From positions 2,459,152 to 2,523,151 of the forward strand of contig OZ220692.1 in assembly GCA_965116485.1 (NCBI GenBank): 64,000 nt of DNA. Reading direction: 5' to 3'. The translations under genes were made by a program, and so were the position numbers. Below are positions 13,956-61,200 of the stretch, one piece after another; the stretch's first letter is position 1; each line of letters starts with the position of its first letter. This DNA is from Acidimicrobiales bacterium. GTDB lineage: Bacteria; Actinomycetota; Acidimicrobiia; Acidimicrobiales; Aldehydirespiratoraceae. The notes beneath the pieces were generated by a model, which was not told the DNA's origin, made no database searches, and was given only the letters and a program-made list of their open reading frames with translations.

Positions 13956-14028
13956 GCACCTCTAGCTCAATTGGCAGAGCAACGGACTCTTAATCCGCAG
14001 GTTCTGGGTTCGAGTCCCAGGGGGTGTA
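13956..14028 (+). tRNA. tRNA-Lys(CTT)
   Basis: 73 nt: acceptor gcacctc/ggggtgt, loop ctCTTaa, T-arm ctggg-ttcgagt-cccag. CCA encoded at 14029-14031. Confidence 0.85.
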
Positions 14029-14102
14029 CCACAGGCTCCAGATCTTGCACTGCCTCAGCGGAGCCACAACAGCGAATCGAGCAGTTTCACGAAGCTGGCT
14101 CC

Positions 14103-14534
14103 CTAGTGCGGATTCAGAACCTCGACGCGCCGCGGGTCAGCAGAGATCGCTGCCATAGCCTGGTCGAAAGTGGCAACGCAACCGTCGTAGCGCTCGGCCA
14201 AGGACAACAGGTGGAGATCGGTGACCTGTCGATGACCGGTGACCCCCGCTCGGTGCCAAGCCTGCGAGCGTGCCGGAACGATGTCGTCCACCCAGAATCG
14301 GTGCCCGGTGAATTCGGTGAGTGATCGCAGCACCGCCGCTGCCTCCCGCGGTGGGCGAGCATCAGCGAGTACACGCGAGTTCGAGGAAACACGGATAAAG
14401 CCCAACTGCACCACGGCCGACGTAGCCCATGATTCAACCCTTCGGGAGAGAAACCAGTCGACGGCTGCGCCGTGGTGAAGATGAGTAGGCCATGCCAAGG
14501 CAACGAGTACGTTGACGTCTAGAAGTGGTGTCAC
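14103..14534 (-). CDS. vapC: PIN-domain toxin VapC
   Basis: 143 aa: LLDVNVLVAL N-terminal acidic motif, later VTDLHLLSLA and ATFD acidic positions typical of PIN. 4-bp overlap with the upstream antitoxin gene. Confidence 0.8.
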   Translation of the reverse strand: MTPLLDVNVLVALAWPTHLHHGAAVDWFLSRRVESWATSAVVQLGFIRVSSNSRVLADARPPREAAAVLRSLTEFTGHRFWVDDIVPARSQAWHRAGVTGHRQVTDLHLLSLAERYDGCVATFDQAMAAISADPRRVEVLNPH

Positions 14535-14752
14535 CAGTCTTCGCTCGCTGAACGGACCATCTCAGGGGTGATTGGTTGACTGGCTGGTTCGACGGTGAAT
14601 CCCGGAACAGCACGCCTCGTGTCCACAGGCCGGTCTTGCAGTCCTTTGCGAGCCAAGTCCGAAACTGCGGTACCGACCGATACACCACGTTCGCGAGCGA
14701 GCGAGCGCGCCACCGCAAGAACATCATCAGCCAAATTCAGTGTTGTGCGCAT
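14531..14752 (-). CDS. vapB: VapB-type antitoxin
   Basis: About 73 aa: MRTTLNLADDVLAVARSLARERGVSVGTAVSDLARKGL is typical of VapB-like antitoxins. The ORF track starts at GTG 14755; ATG 14752 is the likelier start. Confidence 0.7.
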   Translation of the reverse strand: MRTTLNLADDVLAVARSLARERGVSVGTAVSDLARKGLQDRPVDTRRAVPGFTVEPASQPITPEMVRSASEDW

Positions 14753-14758
14753 CACAAC

Positions 14759-14787
14759 ATCATAGCATCATATTGCGGTTTTGACAC
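14759..14787 (-). promoter_or_regulatory. Candidate vapBC promoter giving a leaderless mRNA
   Basis: Minus strand reads gtgtca-N17-TATGAT-gttgtg-ATG. The -10 TATGAT (14759-14764) ends 6 nt before ATG 14752. A direct repeat atcata-gc-atcata overlaps the -10. Confidence 0.35.
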
Positions 14788-14813
14788 TACGGATTACCTT
14801 GCGGTGGGGAACC

Positions 14814-14925
14814 AACCCGCGGGCGATCGACAAAGTGACCGGGTCACCGGCGTGGATCGAGGCGAACAGCACCGCGACCATGGCGACCGCTGCTGCCAGC
14901 AAGTCCAGGAGCGGAGGAAACTCCG
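14814..14925 (-). pseudogene. 112-bp fragment homologous to the membrane-protein gene at 32276-33130
   Basis: 14814-14925 aligns without gaps to 32661-32772 (about 15 mismatches by eye). It translates to PPLLDLLAAAVAMVAVLFASIHAGDPVTLSIARGLV versus PPSLDLAAAAVAMVAVLFASINAGDPVALSIARGLV. Confidence 0.8.
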
Positions 14926-14939
14926 ACGTCTGCGTCGAG

Positions 14940-15236
14940 ATCGTGCTCAACAACGTGCCCACCCTGGGTGAATCGCATCAGGCATGGCAGCTCAACGAGA
15001 TCAGCTCGCTGATCTGGCCGTCCCCGCTCGGAGCGGGCGTGATGGACCCGGACCTGTGGGCCCAGACGGTCGACGTCGCCACCAGCGAGGGCATTCTCGG
15101 CGCAGCTCCGGACGACGGCGCCGATCGCACCGACATCGCCGAAGAGGCGCTCGAGAACCTGCGCGATCAGGGCATCGACGTGGTCGGCTCCGATTTCGAA
15201 CGGATTGTCGTCGAGCTTCGCGAAGGCGGCGAGTAG
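14940..15236 (+). pseudogene. 3' fragment of a solute-binding-protein-like gene
   Basis: Only the tail ...NNVPTLGESHQAWQLNEISSLIWPSPLGAGVMDPDLWAQTVDV...VVGSDFERIVVELREGGE reads like a real protein. It resembles the C-terminus of NMT1/THI5-type ABC substrate-binding proteins, which is weak recollection-level similarity. No N-terminal part is present. Confidence 0.3.
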
Positions 15237-15263
15237 CGCACGCGCCCGGCAGAACCTGATCCG

Positions 15264-15644
15264 CTAAAGCGGATCCGACTGGAAGACGCCCAGGACGTTG
15301 CCGCTCGGGTCCAAGAAGTGGAACCGCCGTCCCCCCGGGTAGGGGTAGATCGCTGAGATGATCTCCCCTCCCGCGGCGACCACTTCAGTCTGTTTGGCTT
15401 CGATGTCGGAGCAGCTGACCAGCACGAACGGACCGATCGGGTCCTCTGATCCCGGCGCATGGGCCGGGGCGGCCGTACCCGCGCCGTTGAGTCCGACCTC
15501 GACCGCGCCGCCTTCGTGGGCGACATAGCTGGGCCCGTATTCGGTCCAGTCCCAGCCGAACACCCGGCTGTAGAACTGCTTGGTCTGCTCCAACTGCGGC
15601 GCAGGAAGCTCAACGTAGTCGATCTGCAATCTGTCGCTCGCCAT
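15264..15644 (-). CDS. VOC (glyoxalase/bleomycin-resistance) family protein
   Basis: 126 aa: IDYVELPAPQLEQTKQFYSRVFGW ... RRFHFLDPSGNVLGVF is a typical VOC-fold pattern. Confidence 0.75.
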   Translation of the reverse strand: MASDRLQIDYVELPAPQLEQTKQFYSRVFGWDWTEYGPSYVAHEGGAVEVGLNGAGTAAPAHAPGSEDPIGPFVLVSCSDIEAKQTEVVAAGGEIISAIYPYPGGRRFHFLDPSGNVLGVFQSDPL

Positions 15645-15719
15645 CGCCCGACTCTACCCGGCCACACAGCCGACCACATAAGCAACCGGGGCTCCGGCTA
15701 CGCCCGGCGACCAGCAACG

Positions 15720-15793
15720 CACCTCCGACAGGACTCGACCCTGCAACCCGCGAGGTAGAAGCTCGCTGCTCTGTCCAGTCGAGCTACGGTGGC
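15720..15793 (-). tRNA. tRNA-Arg(TCT) copy 2, probably degenerate
   Basis: Same frame as 13697-13770, but acceptor gccaccg/cggaggt has an A4xA69 mismatch and the T-loop reads gtcgagt (T54 replaced by G). Confidence 0.55.
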
Positions 15794-15877
15794 GGAATAA
15801 TCGTACGCCGAGTGCCGCAACTCGGCACCCCCAATGCCTGACTCCGCTCCGGGTCAACGCCCGGGACGGGGCAACAT

Positions 15878-15952
15878 GGTGGGCGTAGCTCAGTTGGTTA
15901 GAGCGCCTGGTTGTGGTCCAGGAGGTCGGGGCTTCGAATCCCCTCGTTCACC
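15878..15952 (+). tRNA. tRNA-His(GTG) copy 2, T-arm altered
   Basis: Identical acceptor, G-1 and anticodon arm to copy 1. The T-arm is ggggc-ttcgaat-cccct, which breaks the near-invariant G53-C61 pair. Confidence 0.65.
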
Positions 15953-15978
15953 CGTAGAATCGCCTTCGGTCGATTCGC

Positions 15979-16051
15979 GCACCTCTAGCTCAATTGGCAG
16001 AGCAACGGACTCTTAATCCGCAGGTTCTGGGTTCGAGACCCAGGGGGTGTA
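15979..16051 (+). tRNA. tRNA-Lys(CTT) copy 2
   Basis: Same cloverleaf as 13956-14028. T-loop is ttcgaga, and the 3' trailer is caa instead of cca. Confidence 0.75.
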
Positions 16052-16128
16052 CAACGCAAAACCCCTAGTCAGTACAAGTTCTGTGCCGACCTGGGGTTCT
16101 GTCGTCCAGGTACGGGACACGTCCGTGG

Positions 16129-34530: not shown

Positions 34531-36381
34531 TCAGGAGTGAAGGGAATCTGCGGACTGGCGGGCGTGGTAGCTCGAACGGGTCAGCGGGGAGGACTCCACA
34601 TGTGCGATTCCCACCGACTCGCCGAACTCTTTCCATTCGTCGAACACCTCAGGCTGCCACCACCGGGCCACCGGCAGATGATGCGACGTCGGGCGCAGAT
34701 ACTGGCCGATCGTGACGATGTCGACGCGGAGCGCCGCGAGGTCGATGAGGGTCTGGCGAATCTCTAGGTCACTCTCCCCCATCCCCGCGATTATCGACGA
34801 CTTGGTCGTCAGGCCGGCCGCTTTGGCACGACCCAACACCGAAAGACTGCGCGCATAACCGGCCGACGGGCGTACCGCACGCTGCAGCCGCGCCACCGTC
34901 TCGATGTTGTGGCTGAACACATCGGGACGCGCGTCGAACACCGTCTTCAGCGAACGATCGCATCCTTTGAAGTCCGAAACCAGAGTCTCCACCCGGCACT
35001 CAGGCGAGCGCCCGCGGATCGCGGCAATGACCTCGGCCACCGCTCCCACTCCGCCGTCTGCGAGATCGTCGCGGGCGACCATGGTGACGACCGCGTACGC
35101 CAGCCCCATCGACTCGACCGCCAGGGCGACCCGCGCCGCCTCGCCGGGATCGGGCGGGCCGGGGAGGCGCGTGTCGACCAAGCAGAACCCGCACGCCCTG
35201 GTGCAGCGGTCCCCGAGGATCATGAAGGTCGCGGTACCGTCGTTCCAGCATTCGGAGATGTTGGGGCATCCTGCCTCCTCGCACACGGTCACGAGTCCGA
35301 GTTCTTTGATCGTTGCGCGGACCTGACGGAACTTCGGCGCCGGATCGAAGCGGACCCGCATCCAGTCGGGCTTGCGGGCACGCAGCCGCACCGGGTCGTG
35401 GTCCGTGGCGCCTGCCTGGGCGAGCCGACCCAGCAGCCGCACCGAGGCGCCGTCCGCTTTGGCCGCGAAGTCCAAGGCAGCCGGCCCGCCCGGCCCGCCC
35501 GATACGCCCAGGCCCTCCGACCCGCCCGATACGCCCAGGCCCTCCGGCCCGCCCGATGCGCCCAGGCCCTCCGACCCGCCCGACGCGCCCAGGCCGCCCG
35601 ACCCCTCCGTCACGGACCCGGAAGCCGCGAGCGCGTCGGTGTGGCCGACCCCGTCGCGCCCGACCGGGTTTCCAAGACCCTCACCAAGAGAGAAGGGCGC
35701 CAGATCCGTGCGTCTGGTTCTGAACCCGACCCCGGCGCGGTCGACTGAGGTGTGCGGAGCGAACAGAGCCGACGCCCGTTGCGTGAACACCTCGACCATC
35801 TCCGGCATCGAAACGTCGACGCCGAGCGCTGCCAGCGAGGTGACGCCCTTGTCGCGGATCCCGCACGGCACGATCCGCTCGTACCAGCTCAAGTCGGGAT
35901 CGACGTTGAGCGCCACCCCGTGCATGGAGCGTCCCCGCGTTATCCGCACCCCAATCGCCGCGATCTTGCGGGGCTGTTGCCCCTGAAAATCAACCCAGAC
36001 ACCGGTGCAGCCGGCGATTCGCCCCGACTCGACACCGACATCTCGCAGCGAATCGATCAACAGCTGTTCAAGCGATGACACATACGCGGCGGTGTCGGCC
36101 ATTCCGCCGCCTCGGCGTCCCAGAACTTCAACAATGGGGTACGCGACCAGCTGCCCCGGACCGTGGTAGGTCACGTCACCTCCCCGATCCGTCTCAACCA
36201 ACTCGGCGCCGAGCGACTCGATGTCGGCGAGCAGATGATCCACCGGCGTGCGGCGAGTCACAGTCACCACATTCGGATGCTCCAACAGGAGCAGATAGTC
36301 GTATAGACGATTGCCGGCCAACGACCGTTGCAGAGCGAGCGCATCCGTGTAGGCGACCCTTCCCAACCAGCGGATGCGCAA
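34531..36381 (-). CDS. Fused octanoyltransferase LipB / lipoyl synthase LipA
   Basis: One 616-aa ORF: N-terminal TDRGGDVTYHGPGQLVAYPI (LipB), a Gly/Ser 9-aa repeat linker, then C-terminal CEEAGCPNISECW and LGDRCTRACGFCLVDT (LipA radical-SAM and auxiliary cluster motifs). Confidence 0.8.
   Translation of the reverse strand: MRIRWLGRVAYTDALALQRSLAGNRLYDYLLLLEHPNVVTVTRRTPVDHLLADIESLGAELVETDRGGDVTYHGPGQLVAYPIVEVLGRRGGGMADTAAYVSSLEQLLIDSLRDVGVESGRIAGCTGVWVDFQGQQPRKIAAIGVRITRGRSMHGVALNVDPDLSWYERIVPCGIRDKGVTSLAALGVDVSMPEMVEVFTQRASALFAPHTSVDRAGVGFRTRRTDLAPFSLGEGLGNPVGRDGVGHTDALAASGSVTEGSGGLGASGGSEGLGASGGPEGLGVSGGSEGLGVSGGPGGPAALDFAAKADGASVRLLGRLAQAGATDHDPVRLRARKPDWMRVRFDPAPKFRQVRATIKELGLVTVCEEAGCPNISECWNDGTATFMILGDRCTRACGFCLVDTRLPGPPDPGEAARVALAVESMGLAYAVVTMVARDDLADGGVGAVAEVIAAIRGRSPECRVETLVSDFKGCDRSLKTVFDARPDVFSHNIETVARLQRAVRPSAGYARSLSVLGRAKAAGLTTKSSIIAGMGESDLEIRQTLIDLAALRVDIVTIGQYLRPTSHHLPVARWWQPEVFDEWKEFGESVGIAHVESSPLTRSSYHARQSADSLHS
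35494..35601. repeat. 27-bp tandem repeat x4 in the LipB-LipA linker
   Basis: The unit cccgcccgatacgcccaggccctccga is repeated with a few substitutions and encodes SGG(S/P)EGLG(A/V) on the minus strand. Confidence 0.85.
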
Positions 36382-36407: not shown

Positions 36408-38126
36408 TCAGCGGACCTCCGCCTCCCAGTCGCGAGTCTCGATGATCTCTTTGACCCGATGCAGGAACGCGGCAGCGTAGGCCCCGTCGAAAGCGCGGTG
36501 GTCCCAGGCCATCGCCAACACTCCCATCGAGTGGATTGCGATCGACTCGTTACCGAACGAATCAGTGACCACGACCGGTTTTCGAGCCACACCGTCAGTC
36601 GACAGGATCGCCACCTGAGGCTGGTTGATGATCGGGAACTGCATCATCGTGCCGTACTGTCCGGCGTTGGTCAGCGTGAAAGTGCCGCCCGAGAGCTCAT
36701 CGGGCATCAGCTGCTTGGTTCGCGCGCGGGCGGCGACATCCACGATGTCGCGAGCGATCTGTCGCAGCCTCTTGCCCTCGGTGCCCTTGAGCACCGGCGC
36801 CAGCAGCCCGTTGAAGTCGATGTCGACGGCGATGGCAAGGTTGACCTCGTCGTGGACGACTAGGTGGTCACCCCCGAAACTGGCATTGAGGTGCGGGTAT
36901 TCGCGCAGCGCATCAACGACCGCGCGGGCAATGAACGGCAGGTAGGTGAGGCTGAACCCCTCCTCTGCCTTCCATCCTGACTTGACCGCCTTGCGCACTT
37001 TCTCGACACCCTCATAGTCGATCTCCATCGCTGTGAGCACGTGCGGCGAAGCGCTCTTGGACATGACCATGTGCTCTGCGGTGCGCTTGCGAATGTTGTT
37101 GAGAGCCACGACCTTGTCACGCGTCCCGACTTCGGGGGATGGAATCGCAGGAGCCACGGGAGGCGTGTCGGCCACTGCCGCCGCGGGCTCCGATGGTCGC
37201 TCGGCGAACGGCGGAGGAGGAACCGGTTCTTGAGCCGACGGTGTGGAGGCTGTGGAGGGTGTGGACGGCACGGAGGGCACGGAGGGCACGGACGGTGTGG
37301 ACGGCGCGGCCGATGCTCTCGATCTGATCGCAGCTTCGACATCGGCTCGCGTGATTCGCCCACCGATACCTGTACCGACGATCGTCGACGGATCAAGCCC
37401 GTTGTCGGCAATCAATCGACGCACAACCGGGGACAAGAGCGCACTCGACACTCCACGCTTCGGCAACCCAGCAGCCGCCTCCGGCGACGCCGTTGAATCC
37501 GAAGAAACAGCCGCGGCAGCCTTCGGCGGCAACGGCGGGGGCGGCAGCGTCGACGACGGGGGCGCCGTTTCGCTCAGCGTCGGCGCCGGCTCAGGCAGCG
37601 GCGACTCGGACACAGGCCCCGGCGTCGGATCAGCCGAAACCTGTGCCGGTTCCGGCTCAGGCAGCGGCGACTCGGGGGCGGGCGCCGGTTCGATCACCGG
37701 CACGGGCTGCGGATCGGGTGCAGGCGCGGCGAACACGTCGGGCTGCGGATCAGGTGCAGGCGCGGCGAACACGTCGGGCTGCGGATCAGGTGCAGGCGCG
37801 GCCAACACGTCGGAATCCGGATCAGGTGCAGGCGCGGCCAACACGTCGGATTCCGCAGGGGCCGCGGCCGGGGCAGCAGAAGCTTCAGAAGCTTCGCCGA
37901 TCTGTGCCAGAACCTGCCCGACCTCCACGAGGTCTCCCTCGTTGGCGAATATCTCAAGCAGCGTTCCGGCAATGGGCGACGGCACTTCCGAGTCGACCTT
38001 GTCGGTGGAAACCTCGAAGAGGATCTCATCCATCTCCACATGGTCACCGACCTGCTTGAACCAGCGGGTGATCGTCCCCTCGGTGACTGTCTCCCCCAAC
38101 TGCGGCATGGTCACGTCAGCCATCAA
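36408..38126 (-). CDS. 2-oxoacid dehydrogenase E2 (dihydrolipoamide acyltransferase)
   Basis: Lipoyl domain FEVSTDKVDSEVPSPIAG, long Pro/Ala linker, catalytic DHRAFDGAYAAAFL. Confidence 0.85.
   Translation of the reverse strand: MMADVTMPQLGETVTEGTITRWFKQVGDHVEMDEILFEVSTDKVDSEVPSPIAGTLLEIFANEGDLVEVGQVLAQIGEASEASAAPAAAPAESDVLAAPAPDPDSDVLAAPAPDPQPDVFAAPAPDPQPDVFAAPAPDPQPVPVIEPAPAPESPLPEPEPAQVSADPTPGPVSESPLPEPAPTLSETAPPSSTLPPPPLPPKAAAAVSSDSTASPEAAAGLPKRGVSSALLSPVVRRLIADNGLDPSTIVGTGIGGRITRADVEAAIRSRASAAPSTPSVPSVPSVPSTPSTASTPSAQEPVPPPPFAERPSEPAAAVADTPPVAPAIPSPEVGTRDKVVALNNIRKRTAEHMVMSKSASPHVLTAMEIDYEGVEKVRKAVKSGWKAEEGFSLTYLPFIARAVVDALREYPHLNASFGGDHLVVHDEVNLAIAVDIDFNGLLAPVLKGTEGKRLRQIARDIVDVAARARTKQLMPDELSGGTFTLTNAGQYGTMMQFPIINQPQVAILSTDGVARKPVVVTDSFGNESIAIHSMGVLAMAWDHRAFDGAYAAAFLHRVKEIIETRDWEAEVR
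37705..37848. repeat. 36-bp tandem repeat x4 in the E2 linker
   Basis: Unit ggctgcggatc(a/g)ggtgcaggcgcggc(g/c)aacacgtcg. It encodes 12-aa repeats (roughly PDVFAAPAPDPQ) in the Pro/Ala linker. Confidence 0.85.
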
Positions 38127-38233: not shown

Positions 38234-39679
38234 TCAACCATGGAGCGAACGCCCGGTCAAAGACAACACCGATTCTCCAAAAAGCTCGCTCATGGTCGGA
38301 TGCGGCTGAATGAAAGCCGCCACATCGTCGACCGTCGCCTCCCAGTTGACCGCAAGGTAGGCCTGGCCTAGCTGTTCGGTCACCCAGGGCCCGACCATGT
38401 GGACGCCCAGAATCTGACCGCCCGTGCCGTCGGGACGCTTCTGGGCGATGACCTTCACGATTCCGTCGGTGTCACCGACGATCTTGGCTCTGCCGTTGCC
38501 GATGAAACGCAACGACGAGGTCACAACTTCGTGACCGGCCTTGATCGCTGAATCCTCGGTGTGCCCGGCGAACGCCACCTCAGGATGGCAATATATGCAC
38601 CACGGCGTTCGGTGGTAGTCCAACGGAGCTGGTTCTTCGCCCAACGAATCGGTGACGGCCAGCATTCCCTCGGCGAAGGCCACATGGGCGAGCTGTGGGG
38701 TGTCGATCAGGTCGCCCACAGCCCAAACACCGGGTTCCGCGGTGCGACAGCGGCCGTCCACCTCAACGAAACCGCGCTCATCAACAACCACCGACGTGCC
38801 GCTGAGGCCCAACAGGTCGGCATTGGGTCGCCGACCGACCGAGACCACCACCAGCTCGACGTCCACGGACTGACCGTCGCCGAACGACACCGACGTGTGC
38901 GAACCGGAGGGATCGGGAGTGTGTCCGCGAACCGGGGCCGAAGTGTACACAGTGATGCCGCGCTTCTTGAAGCTGCGCGCCACAACTTTGGTCGCGTCGC
39001 GGTCGCATCCGGTGAGGATCTGGTCCAGCGCTTCAATCACTGTGACCTCCGCCCCGAGGTCGGCCATCATCGAGGCGAACTCACAACCGATGGCGCCGCC
39101 GCCGATCACTGCGGCACTCTTCGGGAGTGCTTCGATCGACAACAGCTCGTCGGAGGTCATCACGAATTTCTGATCGACTTCAAAGCCCGGGATCGTGCGC
39201 GGCAGCGACCCCGTCGCCAGAATCACCGACGGGGCGGTGAGCGCCTGCGTCTCGCCCCCTCCGCTGACCGTCACCACCCGGTCGGCGCCGAGCGAGCCGA
39301 CCCCGTTGTAAACGGTGACCTTTCGGCCCTTCATCATCGAGCCGAGGCCGGCAACGAGTTGATCGATGATGGTCTGCTTGCGCTGCATCGTGACATCCCA
39401 GTCGAGCGCCGGCGCCGAGGTCGTCACGCCGAAGTCGCCTGCATGGGAGACAGTGCGAAAGACATGCGCCGTCTCCAACAACTCCTTGGCGGGGATGCAC
39501 CCGACATGCAGGCAAGTGCCACCGAGAGCGCCCTTCTCCACGAGCCCTGTGTTCAACCCGACGCCCGCGGCATACAGTGCGGCTGCATAGCCGGCGGGAC
39601 CACCCCCGACAACGATCAAATCGTGTTGCGTCACATCGTTCTGCGTGTCTATGGGACTTCCTCCCCGTGCGAGCCTCAT
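38234..39679 (-). CDS. lpd: Dihydrolipoyl dehydrogenase (E3)
   Basis: DLIVVGGGPAGY FAD motif and redox disulfide GGTCLHVGCIPAK. The true start may be the GTG before TQHDLIVVGGG. Confidence 0.9.
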   Translation of the reverse strand: MRLARGGSPIDTQNDVTQHDLIVVGGGPAGYAAALYAAGVGLNTGLVEKGALGGTCLHVGCIPAKELLETAHVFRTVSHAGDFGVTTSAPALDWDVTMQRKQTIIDQLVAGLGSMMKGRKVTVYNGVGSLGADRVVTVSGGGETQALTAPSVILATGSLPRTIPGFEVDQKFVMTSDELLSIEALPKSAAVIGGGAIGCEFASMMADLGAEVTVIEALDQILTGCDRDATKVVARSFKKRGITVYTSAPVRGHTPDPSGSHTSVSFGDGQSVDVELVVVSVGRRPNADLLGLSGTSVVVDERGFVEVDGRCRTAEPGVWAVGDLIDTPQLAHVAFAEGMLAVTDSLGEEPAPLDYHRTPWCIYCHPEVAFAGHTEDSAIKAGHEVVTSSLRFIGNGRAKIVGDTDGIVKVIAQKRPDGTGGQILGVHMVGPWVTEQLGQAYLAVNWEATVDDVAAFIQPHPTMSELFGESVLSLTGRSLHG

Positions 39680-39954
39680 GCTACCGGAGCCGATCCCTTA
39701 CCGGAGCGGGCTCAGCTGACAATCATCAACAACTGAACAGCTCCGGCAACAAGAATCGCCAACCCGACCAGAAGCGAGACTCCGATCAACATTCGGGTAC
39801 TCATCGTGACCTCTTCTTCTGACCTCTTCTTCGCTTCTCCCGGCCCAGCAAGGCTACCTGAGAGTTCGCTCGCCAGTCCCGCTCACCGAAGACGCCCGCG
39901 GTCATGCCCGACCCCGACCGACTCTGCGACCGAAAAAGTCTGCGAAAGTCTAGG

Positions 39955-40557
39955 ATGGCAGCGGTGAGGCGAACAGCTCTTTCTCGGATCACTGCTGCGC
40001 TGACGGTTGCGGCGCTGCTGGGCGGCGCATGCAGCGATGGCGCCGATGACCAGGCCGCCCCGACACAGCCGGATTCGACACCCGCGACCCCGACTACGAC
40101 CACGGCCGCGGAGTCGTCACCTGTGACAACAGCGAGCGATCAGAGCGCAGTGTCCTGGCCTCACGACTGGACCGAGGAACGCGTCGGTGGAGGCCAATTC
40201 GATGCCGGTGACTACGAGGGTCAAGACCTCGTGTTGTGGTTCTGGGCGCCGTGGTGACCGGCTTGTCAACGGGAAGCCGGTGCGGTCGCATCGGTTCAGC
40301 AACAATTCGCCGGTCGGATCGACATCATCGGCGTCGGCGGCAGCACCAGCTCACAAGCCGATCTCGAGCGCTTCGTGGGCGGTTACGGAGTCATCGACCT
40401 CATCAACCTGTCCGACACCGACAACTCCGTATGGGAACGCTACGGCGTCTTCAGCCAGCCGATCTATGCGTTCATCAACGACGACGGCACCACCGAGGTG
40501 ACGAGACTCCCTGTGGCCGAACTCGCCGACCGGATTGAACAGCTGCTAGCCGCCTAG
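39955..40557 (+). CDS. TlpA/ResA-like thiol-disulfide oxidoreductase lipoprotein with in-frame TGA (candidate selenocysteine, motif W-U-P-A-C)
   Basis: ORFs 39904-40257 and 40375-40557 are in the same frame, with no other stop between them. TGA 40255-40257 sits where the first Cys of WCxxC is expected (LVLWFWAPW-TGA-PACQREA...). Lipoprotein-like signal AALLGGAC. Start ATG 39955 chosen. Confidence 0.6.
40277..40294 (+). promoter_or_regulatory. Candidate SECIS hairpin with GGUC apical loop
   Basis: ccggtgc-GGTC-gcatcgg: 7-bp stem with the loop starting 30 nt from the U of TGA. An alternative hairpin ccggctt-gtcaacggg-aagccgg (40258-40280) shares the ccgg. Confidence 0.45.
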
Positions 40558-40609: not shown

Positions 40610-40897
40610 CTACTTTCTACGGCGAATCATCCACCCCAGAATCTCGCTGAGAATCGCTCCCGCGACAGCGGAAATCACAATTATCAACCACAACGGCGCG
40701 CTGCGATCAATGAAGAACCATTGGACCGGAGTGCTGTCGGTGTTCTGCACGACGAAAGCGATCAGCGCCAGGGCCACGAGTGCAGCCCCGATGAATTTGC
40801 CGATACCGGTTCTGGCCGGTGGTTGACTCGTCCCGTTGTCTGACATCCTTGGTCCTTTGTTCGTCCCGGTTCGCGTGTACTCGACTGTTCGCGACAC
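40610..40897 (-). CDS. Small membrane protein (LapA/DUF1049-like)
   Basis: 95 aa with two hydrophobic helices and a basic C-terminus (WMIRRRK). The family call is recollection-level. Confidence 0.45.
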   Translation of the reverse strand: MSRTVEYTRTGTNKGPRMSDNGTSQPPARTGIGKFIGAALVALALIAFVVQNTDSTPVQWFFIDRSAPLWLIIVISAVAGAILSEILGWMIRRRK

Positions 40898-40930: not shown

Positions 40931-40990
40931 TCACACGAGGGACAGGCACACGAGAGACAGGCACACGAGAGACAGGCACACGAGAGGCAG
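40931..40990. repeat. 15-bp tandem repeat (about 4 copies) in a divergent promoter region
   Basis: acaggcacacgagag occurs three times with partial copies on both sides. The array ends 16 nt before ATG 41006. Confidence 0.85.
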
Positions 40991-41005
40991 GACCGGAGCA
41001 GAGCA

Positions 41006-43082: not shown

Positions 43083-45800
43083 ATGGCTGACCACTTCTCT
43101 CGCCAACTGCCCGACATCGACCCCGCCGAAACGACCGAATGGATCGATTCCCTCGACGCAGTCCACGCAAGTCAAGGCCAGGCTCGGGCCCGCTACCTGC
43201 TCGCCAAGCTGCTCGAGCGCTCCAACGAGCTCCAGATCGGGGTTCCCCCCACCACCAGCACGCCATACATCAACACCATCCCCGCCGAATCGCAGCCCTT
43301 CTTTCCCGGCGACGAGAACATCGAGAGGCGCATCCGCGCGATCATCCGTTGGAACGCAGCCGCCATGGTGATCCGCGCCAACAAGACCGCTGACGGCATC
43401 GGCGGCCACCTGTCGACGTTCGCCTCCAGCGCGGCTCTCTACGAAGTCGGCTTCAACCACTTCTTCCGCGGCAAAGAAGACGGACTCCCAGGGGACCACG
43501 TGTACTTCCAGGGGCATGCCGCCCCGGGCGTCTACGCACGCGCCTTCCTCGAGGGAAGGCTCAACGAGCAACAGCTCGACAATTTTCGCATGGAAGTCGG
43601 CGGGAACGGCCTTTCGAGCTACCCGCACCCTCGCTTGATGCCGGAGTTCTGGGAGTACCCCACCGTCTCGATGGGTCTGGGCCCGATCAATTCGATCTAC
43701 CACGCTCGTTTCAACCGCTACATGCATCAACGCAAGATCGACGACACCTCCCAGAGCAACGTCTGGAGCTTTCTCGGCGACGGAGAATGCGACGAACCAG
43801 AAACCCTCGGCGCGATCGCTCTCGCAGGCCGATCCGACCTCGACAACTTGAAATGGATCGTCAACTGCAACCTGCAGCGGCTCGACGGCCCCGTCAGAGG
43901 CAACGGAAAGATCATCCAGGAACTCGAAGGCGTGTTCCGCGGCGCCGGCTGGAACGTCATCAAGGTAATCTGGGGCAGCCGCTGGGACGAGCTCCTGCAT
44001 CGCGACGTCGACGGAGTGCTGCTCAACAAGATGGCCGAGACAGTCGACGGCGAATACCAGCGTTTCGCAGTCGAAGACGGTGCCTACATCCGCGAGAAGT
44101 TCTTCGGACCGGACCCCCGGCTGCGCAAACTCGTAGAACACCTGAGCGACGACTACCTCAAAGCGCTCCCCCGCGGCGGCCACGACTACCAGAAGGTCTA
44201 CGCCGCGTTCAAAGCCGCAGCTCAGACCACTGGGCAGCCGACCGTGATCCTCGCCAAGACCATCAAAGGCTGGACCCTCGGCGAGGGATTCGAAGGGCGC
44301 AACGCCACCCACCAGATCAAGAAGATGACCAAGGCGCAGCTTCTGGAACTGAGGGCCAGGCTCCACATGGAGGATGAGATCTCCGAGGAGTCCCTCGAAG
44401 ACGGCATCCCGCCGTACTACCGGCCCTCACCCGACTCAGAGGAACGCGCCTACCTTATGGAGCGGCGCCGGGCCCTCGACGGGCCACTGCCCAGCCGCAT
44501 CGTGCGGGATCGCCGACCGCTCAAGCTGCCCAGCGAAGCCCCGTTCCTGGACCTTCAGAAAGGCTCGTCGGGGCGCGCGGTGTCGACCACGATGGCGTTC
44601 ACCGCGGTGCTTCGAGACCTGCTGAGAGACAAGCGGTTCGGCGAGCGTGTCGTTCCGATCGTTCCGGACGAGGCCCGAACCTTCGGCATGGACTCACTGT
44701 TTCGCGAGTTCCGGATCTACGCGCCGCAGGGGCAGCTCTATGAGCCCGTCGACCACGACCTGCTGCTCTCCTATGCCGAATCCGAGGACGGACAGATCCT
44801 CGAAGAGGGCATCACCGAATGCGGTTCGACCGCCGAATGGATCGCCGCGGGAACCGCTTACGCCAACAGCGGTGTTCCGATGGTTCCGTTCTACACGTTC
44901 TACTCGATGTTCGGGTTTCAACGGGTCGGCGACTCGCTGTGGGCGGCAGCCGATGCACGCACCCGAGGCTTCCTCATGGGCGCCACCGCCGGGCGCACCA
45001 CGCTGCTAGGCGAAGGACTCCAGCATCAAGACGGTCACAGCTTGCTGTTGGCCTCAACAGTCCCCTCCTGTGAAGCCTACGACCCCGCCTTCGCCTACGA
45101 GCTCGGCACGATCCTGCGCGAAGGCCTGCATCGGATGTACCCCGACGGGCGCTCCGCCGAAGGCGAAGACGTGTTCTACTACATCACGATCTACAACGAG
45201 AACTACGAGCAGCCCCCGCGCCCCGACCACGTGCAGGACCGCGACATCACCGACGGGATCTACAAATTCGACGACGGCCCGGACGGCACCGAGCGCCGTG
45301 CGACCATCCTCTTCTCCGGCACTCTGAACCTGGCAGCGCGCGAGGCCCAGCAGATCCTTGCGGACGACTACGGCATCGGCGCCGAACTCTGGAGCGTCAC
45401 CTCCTACAAGCGACTCCGTGCAGACGCGCTGGACGTGGAGCGCCGCAACCGGTTGTCACCGGACCGTCCCGCCGAAGTGGCCAACGTGACGCGCAGACTG
45501 AGCGACAGCGAGGGGCCGATCGTCGCCGTGTCCGACTGGATGACGCTGGTACCCGATCAGATAGCGCGATGGACACCCCGACCGCTGCATGTGCTGGGGA
45601 CCGACGGTTTCGGCCGATCCGACACCAGGGAGGCGTTGCGCCGATTCTTCGAGGTCGACGCCGGCAACATCGTGGTGGCAGTGCTGTCGGCCATGCTCGA
45701 AGAGGGCACCGCGAGCCGCGAGGAAGTCAGCCGTGCCATCGCCAAGGCCGGTATCGACCCGTACCGGCCCGACCCGGCCCATCCCGAGACCGGTGCCTGA
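43083..45800 (+). CDS. aceE: Pyruvate dehydrogenase E1 component, homodimeric type
   Basis: 905 aa with GGHLSTFASSAALYEVGFNHFFRG. Length and motifs are typical of AceE. Confidence 0.9.
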   Translation: MADHFSRQLPDIDPAETTEWIDSLDAVHASQGQARARYLLAKLLERSNELQIGVPPTTSTPYINTIPAESQPFFPGDENIERRIRAIIRWNAAAMVIRANKTADGIGGHLSTFASSAALYEVGFNHFFRGKEDGLPGDHVYFQGHAAPGVYARAFLEGRLNEQQLDNFRMEVGGNGLSSYPHPRLMPEFWEYPTVSMGLGPINSIYHARFNRYMHQRKIDDTSQSNVWSFLGDGECDEPETLGAIALAGRSDLDNLKWIVNCNLQRLDGPVRGNGKIIQELEGVFRGAGWNVIKVIWGSRWDELLHRDVDGVLLNKMAETVDGEYQRFAVEDGAYIREKFFGPDPRLRKLVEHLSDDYLKALPRGGHDYQKVYAAFKAAAQTTGQPTVILAKTIKGWTLGEGFEGRNATHQIKKMTKAQLLELRARLHMEDEISEESLEDGIPPYYRPSPDSEERAYLMERRRALDGPLPSRIVRDRRPLKLPSEAPFLDLQKGSSGRAVSTTMAFTAVLRDLLRDKRFGERVVPIVPDEARTFGMDSLFREFRIYAPQGQLYEPVDHDLLLSYAESEDGQILEEGITECGSTAEWIAAGTAYANSGVPMVPFYTFYSMFGFQRVGDSLWAAADARTRGFLMGATAGRTTLLGEGLQHQDGHSLLLASTVPSCEAYDPAFAYELGTILREGLHRMYPDGRSAEGEDVFYYITIYNENYEQPPRPDHVQDRDITDGIYKFDDGPDGTERRATILFSGTLNLAAREAQQILADDYGIGAELWSVTSYKRLRADALDVERRNRLSPDRPAEVANVTRRLSDSEGPIVAVSDWMTLVPDQIARWTPRPLHVLGTDGFGRSDTREALRRFFEVDAGNIVVAVLSAMLEEGTASREEVSRAIAKAGIDPYRPDPAHPETGA

Positions 45801-59084: not shown

Positions 59085-60533
59085 GTGCCCGACACCAACG
59101 CCGCTGCGCTCCCCGACGGTCTGGTGGCCGTTGTCAAAAAGGACTGCCCGACTTGTGTGCTGGTCGCGCCGGTGCTTGCCACAATCGCCGAGAGCGTCGG
59201 AGTCACCGTGATCACCCAGGACGACCCCGACTTTCCCCAGAGCGCCGACTGGGTCACCCACGACGTGGACCTCGCTCTGTCGTGGCACAACCAGATCGAG
59301 ACGGTGCCCACTCTGCTGCGCGTGAACGACGGTTCCGAAGCCGACCGCATAGTCGGCTGGTCACAGAAAGCCTGGGAAGAGTTCACCGGGCTCAGCGGGC
59401 TCGGAACCGACCTCCCGGAGTTCCGACCCGGGTGCGGATCGCTCAGCGTCGACCCCAGTATCAGCGATGAGCTCGCGGTGCGGTTCTCTGGCTCAACCCT
59501 TGCGAGTCGACGGATCCAGCTCGCCGCTCTGGAGGACGACATCGAAGCGATGTTCGACCGCGGCTTCAGTGACGGCATGCCGGTCGTGCCTCCGACCGAG
59601 GCGCGCGTGCTGCGGATGCTCGAAGGCACGAGCCGCGCGCCGGGCGAGCCAGTGGCCGTCGTGCCACCCGACCTGGTCGACTGCACCGTCGAGAAGGTGG
59701 CGATCAACGCAGTAATGGCCGGATGCAAGCCCGAGTATCTGCCCGTGGTGCTCAGCGCGGTCGAAGCGGCATGCACCGACGAGTTCAACATGCACGGACT
59801 GCTGGCCACGACCATGCCGGTGGGTCCGGTCCTCATCGTCAACGGACCGATCCGCCACGAGATCAACATGAACAGCGGTCTCAACCTGCTGGGTCAGGGG
59901 AACCGCGCCAACAGCACCATCGGTCGTGCTCTTCAGCTTGTCATTCGCAACGTCGGCGGAGGCAAGCCCGGAGGCGTCGACCGGGCCACGCAGGGCAGCC
60001 CCTCGAAGATCGGGCTGTGCTTCGCCGAGGACGAAGAGGGCAGCGCCTTCGACACCTTCGCCGAGTCCCGCGGTTTCAGCCGCGACGTCTCGGTCGTCAC
60101 CCTGTTCCCCGGAGAAGGCCCCCGGCTCATGTTCGACCAGAAGTCGCGATCGCCCGAATCACTCACCAAGCACTTCGCCGAGATGCTGCGAGCCAACGTC
60201 AGCCCGAGAATGGTCATGCAGATGGAGACCGTGATCGTGATGAGTCCCGAACACATGGCCCGCTACCGCGACGCAGGTTGGGACCGCGCCCGCTTTCTGG
60301 CCGAACTGGAAGCGCTGCTGATGATCGACGCCGACGACATCATCGCCGGCTCAGGTGGGATCGAAGAGGGAATGCCCACATTCCTGGCAGGTCATCAACT
60401 GCCGAAGTTCCCTCCCGGAGGGATTCATGTCGTTCACGGAGGCAGCCACGCCGGCTTGTTCTCCAGCACGATCGCCGGCTGGGTGAGCGGCTCAACCGGT
60501 AGCGTGACCGTAACAAAGGAGATCACTCGATGA
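59085..60533 (+). CDS. Thioredoxin-like (CPTC) N-terminal domain fused to a large domain of unknown function
   Basis: 482 aa. VKKDCPTCVLV is CxxC in a Trx-like context. The remaining 350 aa or so were not recognised. ATGA overlap with the downstream UGSC ORF. Confidence 0.5.
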   Translation: MPDTNAAALPDGLVAVVKKDCPTCVLVAPVLATIAESVGVTVITQDDPDFPQSADWVTHDVDLALSWHNQIETVPTLLRVNDGSEADRIVGWSQKAWEEFTGLSGLGTDLPEFRPGCGSLSVDPSISDELAVRFSGSTLASRRIQLAALEDDIEAMFDRGFSDGMPVVPPTEARVLRMLEGTSRAPGEPVAVVPPDLVDCTVEKVAINAVMAGCKPEYLPVVLSAVEAACTDEFNMHGLLATTMPVGPVLIVNGPIRHEINMNSGLNLLGQGNRANSTIGRALQLVIRNVGGGKPGGVDRATQGSPSKIGLCFAEDEEGSAFDTFAESRGFSRDVSVVTLFPGEGPRLMFDQKSRSPESLTKHFAEMLRANVSPRMVMQMETVIVMSPEHMARYRDAGWDRARFLAELEALLMIDADDIIAGSGGIEEGMPTFLAGHQLPKFPPGGIHVVHGGSHAGLFSSTIAGWVSGSTGSVTVTKEITR

Positions 60534-61048
60534 CCGTTGTTCTTGATCCCACGTCCGAGTTGCGGCCTACGACACGTGAGCGTGTCGCTCGACCCGAGTC
60601 TCTCAACGGGCTGACAGTCGGGCTGCTCGACATCTCCAAACCCCGCGGAGACATTTTTCTCGACCGCGTGGAGGAGAGGCTGACCGGTCTCGGCGCCAAC
60701 GTGAAGCGCTTCAAGAAGCCGACGTTCACCAAGCCCGCGCCGGTCGATCTGCGCCATGAGATCGCTGTTTCCTGCGATGCGGTGATTGAAGCACTGGCCG
60801 ATTGAGGTTCCTGCACGACGTGCAGTGTGCACGACATCAACGATCTCGAACTCCGGGGCGTTCCGGGGGTGTTCGTTGCCACCGTCGAGTTCGCCGACGG
60901 AGCAGAGCAGCAGAGCAGGAGCCTCGGAGGCGATATTGCTCATGTCTTGACCGAGCACCCCATCCAGGACCGCACCGATTCAGAGATGGTCGCAATTGCC
61001 GACCGCGCGATCGACACACTGTTGAGCTCGCTCACCGGCCCCGGCTGA
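60530..61048 (+). CDS. Candidate UGSC-motif selenoprotein (in-frame TGA at 60803)
   Basis: ORFs 60530-60805 and 60827-61048 share one frame. Read-through gives ...VIEALAD-U-GSCTTCSVHDINDLELRGVPGVFVAT..., that is a U-G-S-C motif. Confidence 0.6.
60819..60833 (+). promoter_or_regulatory. Candidate SECIS hairpin
   Basis: cgtgca-GTG-tgcacg: 6-bp perfect stem. The loop G and U fall at +23/+24 from the U of TGA, the geometry known for E. coli fdhF. A competing hairpin ctgcac-gac-gtgcag lies at 60811-60825. Confidence 0.45.
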
Positions 61049-61065
61049 CCCCCGACTCCCCGCCC

Positions 61066-61200
61066 TAGCCGCGAAGCCAGGTACCGGCCTGCAAGTCACG
61101 TACTGGCCGGCAATTCACGTAGCCGCGAAGTCTGAAACCCGCCGTAGCAGCGAAGCCAGGTACTGGCCAGAAGTCACGTACTGGCCCAGCAGGTTACGTG
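61066..61200. repeat. Two copies of an imperfect 55-bp unit with internal hairpins, in a convergent intergenic region
   Basis: tagc(c/a)gcgaagccaggtac(c/t)ggcc...gtcacgtactggcc... occurs at about 61066-61120 and 61144-61200. The units contain ccggcc...ggccgg and ggccag...ctggcc stems. Confidence 0.7.

What the first reader, a model, noticed from the sequence alone, without database searches (positions are those of the whole stretch)
39955..40557. Candidate selenoprotein: TlpA/ResA-like lipoprotein with TGA replacing the first Cys of the CxxC motif
Two ORFs in the same frame are separated only by TGA 40255-40257. Read-through gives ...DLVLWFWAPW-U-PACQREAGAVASVQQQF..., the thioredoxin-fold WCxxC active site with the TGA at the first Cys. 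UxxC is the classic arrangement in thioredoxin-fold selenoproteins. A hairpin at 40277-40294 (ccggtgc-GGTC-gcatcgg) has the same GGUC apical loop as the E. coli fdhF SECIS, about 30 nt from the UGA. A second in-frame TGA of the same kind at 60803 strengthens the case that this organism uses selenocysteine.
Basis: partly seen in the sequence, partly recalled or inferred. Interest (0 to 1): 0.75.

Follow-up and report, generated by a model that had tools for sequence, protein, structure and literature searches.

The report
Selenocysteine DsbF-like envelope oxidoreductase gene
The in-frame TGA is a real selenocysteine codon in a secreted, lipid-anchored thiol-disulfide oxidoreductase of a marine actinobacterium; this kind of selenoprotein was described in 2005, but public annotation still cuts this gene in two.

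Summary
Window 39955-40557 (+) is one 200-codon gene, read ...LVLWFWAPW-U-PAC..., with TGA 40255-40257 at the first Cys of the thioredoxin-fold CxxC.

- **Conserved TGA.** The TGA is present in all 17 closest loci (Acidimicrobiia MAGs) and in more than 100 distinct metagenome sequences. The frame stays open and conserved for about 100 further codons.
- **Cys in distant homologues.** More distant actinomycete homologues carry TGC or TGT at that column.
- **SECIS-like hairpin.** The hairpin at 40276-40295 has a GGUC loop whose G31 and U32 are invariant. It shows covariation that includes paired synonymous sites. It occurs in 69 of 103 Sec forms and in 0 of 54 Cys forms.
- **TGA is still a stop.** TGA terminates 21 of 34 long ORFs in the window, so the recoding is site-specific.
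- **Second selenoprotein gene.** The TGA at 60803 lies in a UGSC-family (seleno)protein gene that scores above NCBIfam's curated cut-off.
- **Closest solved relatives.** These are M. tuberculosis DsbF and MPT53/DsbE. A signal peptide and lipobox predict an envelope lipoprotein.
- **Prior description.** A family member (...WFWAPWuGGC...) is listed in the 2005 Sargasso Sea selenoproteome supplement, so this is a new member of a known kind.
- **Not tested.** selA, selB, selC and selD are not in the window and could not be searched in the genome.
- **Side finding.** A related metagenomic subclade has UxxU, with two TGA codons.

The parts
39955..40557 (+). Complete selenoprotein gene, 200 codons including Sec101. 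It encodes a DsbF/MPT53-like thioredoxin-fold thiol-disulfide oxidoreductase. The start may instead be GTG 39964.
   Evidence: Translation. Pfam AhpC-TSA 47 bits, Redoxin 41 bits and Thioredoxin 26 bits, all above gathering score. PDB hits DsbF 3IOS E=1e-22 and MPT53 1LU4 E=8e-20. Read-through ORFs are conserved in L001-L017.
39955..40032 (+). Signal peptide with lipobox: MAAVRRTALSRITAALTVAALLGGA|C26. Cys26 is codon 40030-40032. A Thr/Pro/Ser-rich linker follows (residues about 27-65).
   Evidence: Read from the sequence. A positively charged n-region, a hydrophobic core and a Cys recur in all aligned homologues. No dedicated lipoprotein predictor was available.
40255..40257 (+). UGA decoded as selenocysteine (U101), at the N-terminal, nucleophilic position of the UxxC redox motif.
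   Evidence: TGA in 17 of 17 closest loci and in 103 distinct related sequences. TGC/TGT in the Cys homologues.
40264..40266 (+). TGT, Cys104, the resolving residue of the U-P-A-C motif.
   Evidence: Invariant column C104 in alignment A1. It aligns with the second Cys of DsbF CPTC and MPT53 CPFC.
40276..40295 (+). SECIS-type hairpin inside the coding sequence. It has an 8-bp stem (40276-40283 with 40288-40295; core 7 bp 40277-40294) and a GGUC apical loop at 40284-40287. G40285 and U40286 are invariant in the family.
   Evidence: Folds. RNAalifold consensus. Covariation on 103 sequences is 0.274 against shuffles 0.142 +/- 0.010 (0 of 500 reach it) and slid controls of at most 0.114. Pair 27:36, both third codon positions, is UA 75 / CG 16. 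At least 7 of 8 pairs form in 69/103 Sec forms and 0/54 Cys forms. GGTC is at the loop in 94/103 against 6/54.
40456..40461 (+). Gln168-Pro169, the conserved cis-Pro loop position of thioredoxin-fold oxidoreductases.
   Evidence: Invariant columns Q168 and P169. They align with QP of DsbF and MPT53.
60530..61048 (+). Second selenoprotein gene of the window: UGSC-family (seleno)protein, 172 codons, with TGA 60803-60805 as U92 in ...EALAD-U-GSCTTC... It is independent evidence that this organism decodes UGA as Sec.
   Evidence: NCBIfam NF041046 UGSC_fam 147.9 bits (cut-off 125). Pfam PF24696 133 bits. Sequence. The MFE fold contains hairpin CGUGCA-GUG-UGCACG at 60819-60833, with loop G and U at nucleotides 23 and 24 from the UGA, but it is not more stable than shuffles (z = -0.4).

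Best explanation
Window 39955-40557 is one gene for a selenocysteine-containing, exported thiol-disulfide oxidoreductase of the actinobacterial DsbF/DsbE(MPT53) type. During translation, UGA 40255-40257 is read as selenocysteine. An mRNA hairpin 18 nt downstream (40276-40295, GGUC loop) is inferred to recruit SelB carrying Sec-tRNA(Sec) to the ribosome, as in the E. coli fdhF paradigm. The product has an N-terminal signal peptide and a lipobox (Cys26). It is therefore inferred to be exported, lipidated and tethered to the outer face of the membrane by a Thr/Pro/Ser-rich linker. There its U101-P-A-C104 motif cycles between selenol/thiol and selenenylsulfide to oxidise, reduce or isomerise disulfides of envelope proteins. 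Sec sits at the exposed nucleophilic position, where its low pKa and high nucleophilicity speed exchange and make over-oxidation reversible. Shown here: the conserved TGA, the conserved downstream frame, the Sec/Cys pairing with homologues, the covarying hairpin that is specific to TGA forms, the thioredoxin-fold membership, and a second curated selenoprotein gene in the same window. Inferred: SelB dependence, export and lipidation, and the direction of redox flow. An oxidase role like Mtb DsbE/DsbF is favoured only by homology.
For: 1. In-frame TGA with WFWAPW-U-PAC.
2. All 13 database homologues end at ...WFWAPW. In their contigs the stop is TGA, and 99-100 conserved codons follow in frame.
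3. Genome scan: TGA in window and L001-L017 (Ca. Aldehydirespiratoraceae, Acidimicrobiaceae, Acidimicrobiales MAGs). TGC/TGT in Lentzea, Mycolicibacter, Streptomyces and other homologues.
4. Metagenome scan: at least 120 stretches carry WFWAPW-TGA-CC. Of the loci fetched, all but four continue in frame.
5. Hairpin conserved with covariation, including at paired synonymous sites. The loop bases G30 and C33 are third codon positions yet at least 90% conserved, and G31 and U32 are invariant. The hairpin is absent from Cys forms.
6. TGA terminates 21 of 34 long ORFs of the window, so UGA is not reassigned genome-wide.
7. UGSC (seleno)protein gene with TGA at the family's U position.
8. DsbF and MPT53 are the closest solved structures. 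Pfam AhpC-TSA and Redoxin score above threshold.
9. A family member was published as a selenoprotein: AACY01523057, 'Thiol-disulfide isomerase-like', WFWAPWuGGCNREAAAVAAL (PMC1088965 supplement). It is 37% identical to the window protein, E=6e-20.
10. Sec machinery is reported as universal in another Acidimicrobiia order, Actinomarinales (preprint 10.64898/2026.04.03.716425).
Against: - No tRNA-Sec, selA, selB or selD was found in the window or in about 1.3 Mb of related loci. The rest of the genome could not be searched, so the machinery is unverified for this organism.
- Covariation within the window's own close clade is thin. One compensatory change occurs among 15 sequences, and two relatives have an A.C mismatch. 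The strong signal comes from the wider family.
- In the majority class of the wider family, one stem position (25:38) is a C.A mismatch.
- The UGA-to-loop distance is 8 nt longer than in E. coli fdhF (own knowledge).
- Lipoprotein status rests on reading the sequence, not on a predictor.
- There is no biochemical evidence of Se incorporation.
Confidence: 0.88

Rival explanations
1. The gene is a pseudogene, or the assembly has an error: a former TGC/TGT Cys codon was hit by a nonsense change, and the gene is dead or the base is miscalled.
For: A single-base change TGY to TGA is enough to produce it. Public annotation treats the locus as a truncated 'hypothetical protein' plus a short downstream ORF.
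Against: The same TGA occurs in 17 independent genomic loci and in 103 distinct sequences from many samples and assemblers. The downstream 100 codons remain under protein-level conservation, including the cis-Pro QP. A dead gene would not keep an open, conserved frame or a covarying hairpin.
Confidence: 0.02
2. UGA is read through or reassigned to a standard amino acid (Trp, Cys or Gly) with no selenium involved. The hairpin would then be a generic read-through stimulator, or simply reflect codon constraints.
For: The Sec machinery was not seen. UGA recoding to Trp or Gly exists in other bacterial lineages (own knowledge). Cys can be misinserted at Sec UGA codons under Se limitation (own knowledge).
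Against: TGA is the commonest terminator of long ORFs in the window, 21 of 34. The recoded codon sits exactly on the catalytic Cys column. The hairpin has the GGUC loop with invariant G and U that SelB-binding SECIS elements have, it is placed within the usual distance, and it is missing from Cys forms. A second UGA in the window falls on the U of a curated selenoprotein family.
Confidence: 0.05
3. Two separate products are made: an N-terminal lipoprotein of about 100 aa ending at W100, and an independently translated C-terminal fragment. This is how gene callers annotate the locus.
For: Gene callers predict a downstream ORF of 60-88 aa in relatives. The window has a GTG at 40375 that opens a 60-aa ORF.
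Against: The split falls in the middle of the CxxC active site of a single thioredoxin fold. That fold aligns continuously with DsbF and MPT53 over residues 73-194. The stretch between the TGA and the first possible start, including C104 and the hairpin, is the most conserved part of the gene. Neither half would be a functional domain.
Confidence: 0.03
4. It is a selenoprotein, but it works as a reductant (ResA/TlpA/CcmG-like) that supplies electrons to envelope targets such as apocytochrome c, Msr or peroxiredoxin-type partners. A cytoplasmic partnership with the adjacent Lpd/E2, like mycobacterial AhpD, is a further variant. In this reading it is not a DsbE/F-type oxidase.
For: ResA is the next-best PDB and NCBIfam match. 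The gene is divergently adjacent to lpd-E2-lipB/lipA in every relative examined. Most known UxxC selenoproteins are reductive or antioxidant enzymes (PMC13188914, PMC2398784).
Against: DsbF and MPT53 match far better than ResA (E=1e-22 against 3e-10). The ResA and TlpA equivalog cut-offs are missed by a wide margin. The conserved signal peptide and lipobox argue against a cytoplasmic partnership with Lpd/E2. No cytochrome c maturation genes are adjacent.
Confidence: 0.3

Closest known systems
'Thiol-disulfide isomerase-like' and 'Prx-like thiol:disulfide oxidoreductase' selenoprotein families (Zhang, Fomenko & Gladyshev 2005, PMC1088965; listed in review PMC13188914 as PF00578, UxxC/UxxU)
   Same: Thioredoxin-fold protein with PF00578 as its best Pfam hit, and a UxxC motif with Sec at the first position. 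The published Sargasso sequence AACY01523057 has the same WFWAPW-U-xxC-NREAAAVAA context and is 37% identical.
   Different: The window protein belongs to a sponge-associated or marine Acidimicrobiales clade (Ca. Aldehydirespiratoraceae). It has U-P-A-C, a lipoprotein signal and fixed synteny next to lpd. The published group of 4 is heterogeneous; the others are DWuTWC-type. The family was never tied to DsbF/MPT53 or to a lineage.
Mycobacterium tuberculosis DsbF (Rv1677, PDB 3IOS) and DsbE/MPT53 (Rv2878c, PDB 1LU4)
   Same: Best solved relatives (E=1e-22 and 8e-20 over about 120 residues). They share the WFWAPWCPxCQxEA active-site context and the QP cis-Pro loop, come from the same phylum, and are extracytoplasmic. 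DsbF is a lipoprotein (own knowledge).
   Different: They use Cys, not Sec, and have no SECIS hairpin. The window protein has a long low-complexity linker.
E. coli fdhF SECIS (bacterial Sec insertion paradigm)
   Same: A hairpin lies just downstream of the UGA inside the ORF. Its GGUC apical loop has the G and U that SelB contacts (own knowledge; loop invariance).
   Different: The loop starts at nucleotide 30, not 22, from the U of UGA. No bulged U is evident. Most family members carry an internal C.A mismatch. No Rfam family matched.
ResA / TlpA / CcmG (DsbE) cytochrome-c-maturation thiol-disulfide oxidoreductases
   Same: Same Redoxin/AhpC-TSA superfamily, membrane-tethered and extracytoplasmic, with a CxxC motif.
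   Different: Scores are far below the NCBIfam cut-offs (ResA 42.8 against 170; TlpA 27.7 against 230). There is no ccm/res gene context.
SelL and Prx-like 2 UxxU selenoproteins (diselenide motif)
   Same: A sister subclade found in metagenomes has U-P-F/V/H-U in the same motif.
   Different: The window protein itself is UxxC. The GOS paper reported UxxU only for Prx-like 2, a distant SelP-N-like group (PMC2398784).

Membership tests
Bacterial selenoprotein gene (UGA-Sec with bSECIS) | In-frame UGA with conserved coding sequence on both sides | tested here: met
   17 of 17 closest loci and 103 distinct sequences have TGA followed by about 100 conserved codons.
Bacterial selenoprotein gene (UGA-Sec with bSECIS) | Homologues carry Cys in the column of the UGA | tested here: met
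   TGC/TGT in more than 50 actinomycete homologues at WFWAPW-C-PxC.
Bacterial selenoprotein gene (UGA-Sec with bSECIS) | Stem-loop shortly downstream of the UGA with conserved G (GU) in the apical loop | tested here: met
   8-bp stem, GGUC loop at nucleotides 30-33, G31 and U32 invariant. Covariation is 0.274 against 0.142 in shuffles. The hairpin is absent in Cys forms.
Bacterial selenoprotein gene (UGA-Sec with bSECIS) | selA, selB, selC (tRNA-Sec) and selD present in the genome | not testable with these tools
   Not in the window or in 1.3 Mb of loci. Indirect support comes from the UGSC selenoprotein gene in the same window and from the Sec machinery reported in Actinomarinales.
Bacterial selenoprotein gene (UGA-Sec with bSECIS) | Selenium actually incorporated at the UGA | not testable with these tools
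   Needs 75Se labelling or mass spectrometry.
Thioredoxin-fold Redoxin/AhpC-TSA (TlpA-like, cd02966) superfamily | Domain match above Pfam gathering score | tested here: met
   PF00578 47.0 bits (cut-off 26) and PF08534 41.1 bits (cut-off 26.6), with U replaced by C.
Thioredoxin-fold Redoxin/AhpC-TSA (TlpA-like, cd02966) superfamily | CxxC-type motif after strand beta-1, and a conserved cis-Pro loop | tested here: met
   W100-U101-P-A-C104 and Q168-P169 are invariant and align with DsbF and MPT53.
ResA / TlpA equivalogs (NCBIfam NF002854, NF047696) | Score at or above the curated cut-off | tested here: not met
   42.8 against 170 and 27.7 against 230. It is not filed as ResA or TlpA proper.
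Actinobacterial DsbF / DsbE(MPT53)-like oxidoreductases | Full-domain sequence similarity, better than to other Trx-fold groups | tested here: met
   3IOS E=1.1e-22 and 1LU4 E=7.9e-20, against ResA at 3e-10.
Actinobacterial DsbF / DsbE(MPT53)-like oxidoreductases | Extracytoplasmic location (signal peptide; lipobox for DsbF) | tested here: inconclusive
   The n-region RR, a hydrophobic core and LLGGA|C26 are read from the sequence and recur in homologues. No SignalP or LipoP-type tool was available.
Actinobacterial DsbF / DsbE(MPT53)-like oxidoreductases | Oxidising redox potential or oxidase activity | not testable with these tools
   Biochemistry is required.
Published 'Thiol-disulfide isomerase-like' selenoprotein (Sargasso Sea) | Sequence similarity to a published member with U in the same column | tested here: met
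   AACY01523057 ...LLWFWAPWuGGCNREAAAVAAL...; 37% identity over 91 aa, E=6e-20.
UGSC family (seleno)protein (second gene, 60530-61048) | NCBIfam NF041046 at or above cut-off, with U in the UGSC motif | tested here: met
   147.9 bits against 125. The motif is D-U-G-S-C with TGA 60803-60805.

The most novel reading that the evidence does not exclude
This gene would represent a large lineage of marine Acidimicrobiia selenolipoproteins that is essentially unannotated. The lineage uses Sec in the cell envelope and includes a monophyletic UxxU subclade. In that subclade a single in-ORF SECIS hairpin would have to serve two UGA codons 9 nt apart. This would imply a SelB/SECIS spacing tolerance unlike E. 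coli and a natural diselenide in a bacterial Dsb-type enzyme. The invariant divergent pairing with lpd-E2-lipBA could also reflect a functional link between lipoamide-based redox metabolism and envelope thiol homeostasis.
Probability: 0.2. Interest if true: 0.55.

Novelty: new member of a known kind. Interest (0 to 1): 0.33.

Why it matters
- **Annotation.** Every public homologue found is split at the UGA. Two are deposited as a short 'hypothetical protein' (for example MDE0606508.1), and the C-terminal half appears as an orphan ORF of 60-88 aa or is missing. Correct annotation restores a catalytic envelope oxidoreductase to these genomes, which include sponge-associated Acidimicrobiales.
- **Sec use in this lineage.** Together with the UGSC gene, this marks the organism as a Sec user within Acidimicrobiia.
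- **SECIS data.** The 103-sequence alignment gives a clean, covarying bacterial SECIS example that Rfam does not cover.
- **Limit.** It does not change what is known about selenoprotein biology, because UxxC thioredoxin-fold selenoproteins of this type have been catalogued since 2004-2005.

Tried and rejected
- **Rfam at gathering thresholds.** It found only tRNAs and nothing at the hairpin. Rfam has no suitable bacterial SECIS model.
- **Motif regexes for SelD, SelA and SelB** on the six-frame translation of the window gave nothing.
- **tblastn with E. coli SelA, SelB and SelD** against the window and all fetched loci gave only weak GTPase hits in two Cys-type actinomycetes. ARAGORN on all loci found no tRNA-Sec. 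Both results are uninformative for the genome as a whole.
- **A long-range stem** (GACCGGC with GCCGGTC) that encloses the hairpin in the window's MFE fold is not conserved in L003, L005, L007 or L016. I rejected it as part of the element.
- **A GC3-based scan for further in-frame TGA candidates** was not discriminating at 63% GC. Nothing convincing emerged beyond the two known sites.
- **Searching the GOS paper supplements for WFWAPWU** gave no hit. The Sargasso supplement did give a hit.
- **A midpoint-rooted NJ tree** could not show Sec monophyly. Re-rooting shows the Cys forms grouping with 19 Sec forms that have other hairpin types. The tree is rough and has no support values.
- **Structure prediction** was not run. 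The sequence with U replaced by C is not strictly a window sequence, and PDB homology already fixes the fold.

Full report
**Observation**

The window has TGA at 40255-40257. The frame that ends there (...DYEGQDLVLWFWAPW) continues as PACQREAGAVASVQQQF... to TAG 40555-40557. It extends to 8-9 bp and folds at -13.3 kcal/mol, z = -2.45. The second in-frame TGA is at 60803-60805.

**Is the TGA real and conserved?**

A protein search with U replaced by C returned 13 homologues at 41-81% identity. Every one ends at ...DLVLWFWAPW. I fetched their contigs:
- The terminator is TGA each time.
- In every contig long enough to show it, the same frame stays open for 99-100 more codons that are conserved at the protein level.
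- Gene callers have split the gene into an N-terminal ORF and an orphan ORF of 60-88 aa.
- Two NCBI entries of the cluster are named 'hypothetical protein [Acidimicrobiaceae bacterium]'.

A scan of one genome per species gave two classes:
- TGA at this column in all of L009-L017, which with L001-L007 and the window makes 17 loci. These are MAGs named Ca. Aldehydirespiratoraceae, Acidimicrobiaceae and Acidimicrobiales, plus one contig binned as Gammaproteobacteria.
- TGC or TGT in more than 50 more distant homologues (30-45% identity) from Lentzea, Mycolicibacter, Mycobacterium, Streptomyces, Jiangella and others.

This is the classical Sec/Cys homologue pattern. Of the loci fetched, all but four chance matches continue in frame for about 100 codons.

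**The hairpin**

I aligned 103 distinct sequences from the TGA to +60; the alignment has no gaps.
- **Loop.** G31 and T32 are invariant. G30 and C33 are third codon positions of Ala and Val codons, yet they are at least 90% conserved.
- **Covariation.** For the helix of columns 22-29 with 34-41, the covariation score is 0.274. Column shuffles give 0.142 +/- 0.010 (0 of 500 reach the observed value), and partners slid by 1-3 columns give at most 0.114.
- **Individual pairs.** Pair 27:36 joins two synonymous sites and is UA in 75 sequences and CG in 16. Pair 26:37 is CG 57, GU 21, GC 9. Pair 28:35 is GC 83, AU 8.
- **Control with Cys forms.** At least 7 of 8 pairs form in 69 of 103 TGA forms and in 0 of 54 Cys forms. 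GGTC occupies the loop columns in 94 of 103 against 6 of 54.

The hairpin therefore travels with the TGA and not with the protein sequence.

Three caveats apply:
- Within the window's close clade, variation is small. One compensatory G.U to C-G change occurs in L003, and an A.C mismatch occurs in L002 and L012.
- In the majority class of the wider family, pair 25:38 is a C.A mismatch.
- The loop lies 8 nt further from the UGA than in E. coli fdhF (own knowledge).

Some subgroups place a GGUC hairpin 9 nt further downstream (L132, L141, L165, L187) or use other hairpins (L119 and L120 type).

**Is UGA otherwise a stop here?**

Of 34 long non-overlapping ORFs in the window, 21 end in TGA. Recoding is therefore site-specific.

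The second TGA lies in ORF 60530-61048, which scores 147.9 bits against NCBIfam 'UGSC family (seleno)protein' (cut-off 125) and 133 bits against Pfam UGSC. The TGA falls on the U of the D-U-G-S-C motif. Its minimum-energy fold contains a 6-bp hairpin with a GUG loop at nucleotides 23-25 after the UGA, although that fold is not more stable than shuffles. Two independent selenoprotein-type UGAs in 64 kb argue strongly that the organism decodes Sec.

The machinery itself could not be checked. There is no tRNA-Sec among the 35 tRNAs of the window or in any locus. There is no selA, selB or selD by tblastn. A 2026 preprint reports selA, selB, selC and selD in all 84 complete Actinomarina genomes, another order of the same class.

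**What the protein is**

- **Pfam.** AhpC-TSA, Redoxin and Thioredoxin all score above their gathering scores.
- **NCBIfam.** ResA and TlpA are the top names but fall far below their cut-offs.
- **Solved structures.** M. tuberculosis DsbF (3IOS, E=1e-22) and MPT53/DsbE (1LU4, E=8e-20) match much better than ResA (3e-10). They align continuously across the active site, WFWAPWCPTCQGEAP in DsbF, and across the QP cis-proline loop.
- **N-terminus.** MAAVRRTALSRITAALTVAALLGGA|C26 is a signal peptide with a lipobox, followed by a Thr/Pro/Ser-rich linker. The same layout recurs in all homologues.

I therefore read it as an exported, lipid-anchored DsbF-like thiol-disulfide oxidoreductase with Sec at the nucleophilic position. 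Whether it acts as an oxidase (as reported for Mtb DsbE and DsbF; own knowledge) or as a reductant is not decided by the sequence.

**Gene context**

Upstream, on the opposite strand, lie:
- lpd (38234-39679)
- an E2 acyltransferase (36408-38126)
- a LipB-LipA fusion (34531-36381)

Downstream lie:
- a LapA-domain membrane protein (40610-40897, minus strand)
- an epimerase/DUF1731 protein
- an RNase H fusion
- the AceE-type E1 (43083-45800)

The pairing with lpd is kept in every relative with enough flanking DNA. A predicted extracytoplasmic protein is unlikely to work with cytoplasmic Lpd/E2, so I treat this as conserved gene order and not as evidence of function.

**What is already known**

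The supplement of Zhang, Fomenko and Gladyshev 2005 (PMC1088965) lists AACY01523057 as 'Thiol-disulfide isomerase-like', with ...LLWFWAPWuGGCNREAAAVAAL.... It is 37% identical to the window protein over the domain, E=6e-20. That paper counts four such sequences with UxxC. The others shown are of a different DWuTWC type. A 2026 review lists 'Prx-like thiol:disulfide oxidoreductase, PF00578, UxxC/UxxU' and 'Thiol:disulfide interchange protein' among high-confidence prokaryotic selenoproteins. The GOS study lists Prx-like 1 (pfam00578, UxxC) with 225 sequences. The kind is therefore known. What is added here:
- the assignment to the DsbF/MPT53 branch
- the lineage (Acidimicrobiales, apparently sponge-associated or marine)
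- the lipoprotein architecture
- the SECIS description
- the fact that current databases still truncate every homologue retrieved

**Side finding**

In the metagenomic set, a monophyletic group (7 distinct domain sequences in a rough NJ tree) has a second in-frame TGA at the second Cys: U-P-F-U, U-P-V-U or U-P-H-U. The downstream sequence is conserved, and the hairpin covaries (cccctAc-ggtc-gTagagg). The loop G and U sit 22-23 nt from the second UGA and 31-32 nt from the first. One hairpin would therefore have to serve both codons.

**Verdict**

It is a new member of a known kind and is of moderate interest.

Noticed in passing
window 7885-16052: An array of 35 tRNA genes in about 8 kb, nearly all on the + strand and close to a full set of anticodons. 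An Arg(tct, minus strand)/His/Lys(ctt) unit is duplicated at 13696-14031 and 15719-16052. There is no tRNA-Sec.
   Followed up: no
window 60530-61048 (TGA 60803-60805): A second selenoprotein gene, a UGSC-family (seleno)protein scoring above NCBIfam's cut-off, with a good AAGGAG ribosome-binding site. A candidate SECIS hairpin CGUGCA-GUG-UGCACG lies at 60819-60833. An alternative, mutually exclusive hairpin CUGCAC-GAC-GUGCAG lies at 60812-60826.
   Followed up: partly
L096, L107, L111, L134, L136-L138, L143, L146, L149, L158, L181, L189, L191, L208 (metagenome loci): Relatives of the window protein with two in-frame TGA codons, W-U-P-(F/V/H)-U. This is a UxxU (potential diselenide) motif. They have conserved downstream coding and one covarying GGUC hairpin, and they are monophyletic in a rough NJ tree.
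   Followed up: partly
L132, L141, L165, L187; and L119, L120, L131, L142, L156, L169, L180, L182, L202: Sec-form subgroups whose hairpin differs from the main type. Some have a GGUC hairpin shifted 9 nt downstream (GGCUGC-GGUC-GCAGCC). Others have two hairpins (CCGGGA..UCCCGG and CGCGC-AGUUG-GCGCG). In the NJ tree these group with the Cys forms, which suggests more than one Sec/Cys switch or SECIS turnover.
   Followed up: no
window 40932-40991: Four tandem copies of a 15-nt unit (CACACGAGAGACAGG, 95% matches). They lie between the LapA-domain gene and the likely start (MRVLISGSTG) of the epimerase/DUF1731 gene.
   Followed up: no
window 61059-61186: A cluster of short direct repeats just after the UGSC stop codon: four copies of AAGYCASGTACYGGCC and three copies of a 31-nt unit.
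   Followed up: no
L001 10016-10065, and the same place in L005, L007, L014-L017 (upstream of the Sec gene): A conserved stretch that gene callers translate as ...INFRVL... at the front of the truncated ORFs. Its reverse complement reads as a start, ATG/GTG-AGC-ACC-CGN-AAG (MSTRKLI...), on the lpd strand. It could be a small membrane ORF or an N-terminal extension of lpd. It is absent from the window, L002, L003, L009 and L011.
   Followed up: partly
L016 (CAXMSE010000093.1): This contig, which carries a Sec-form homologue 45% identical to the window protein, is binned as 'uncultured Gammaproteobacteria'. All other close relatives are Acidimicrobiia, so the contig may be mis-binned.
   Followed up: no
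window 39807-39832: A perfect 2-copy tandem repeat of 13 nt (TGACCTCTTCTTC) in the lpd/Sec-gene intergenic region.
   Followed up: no
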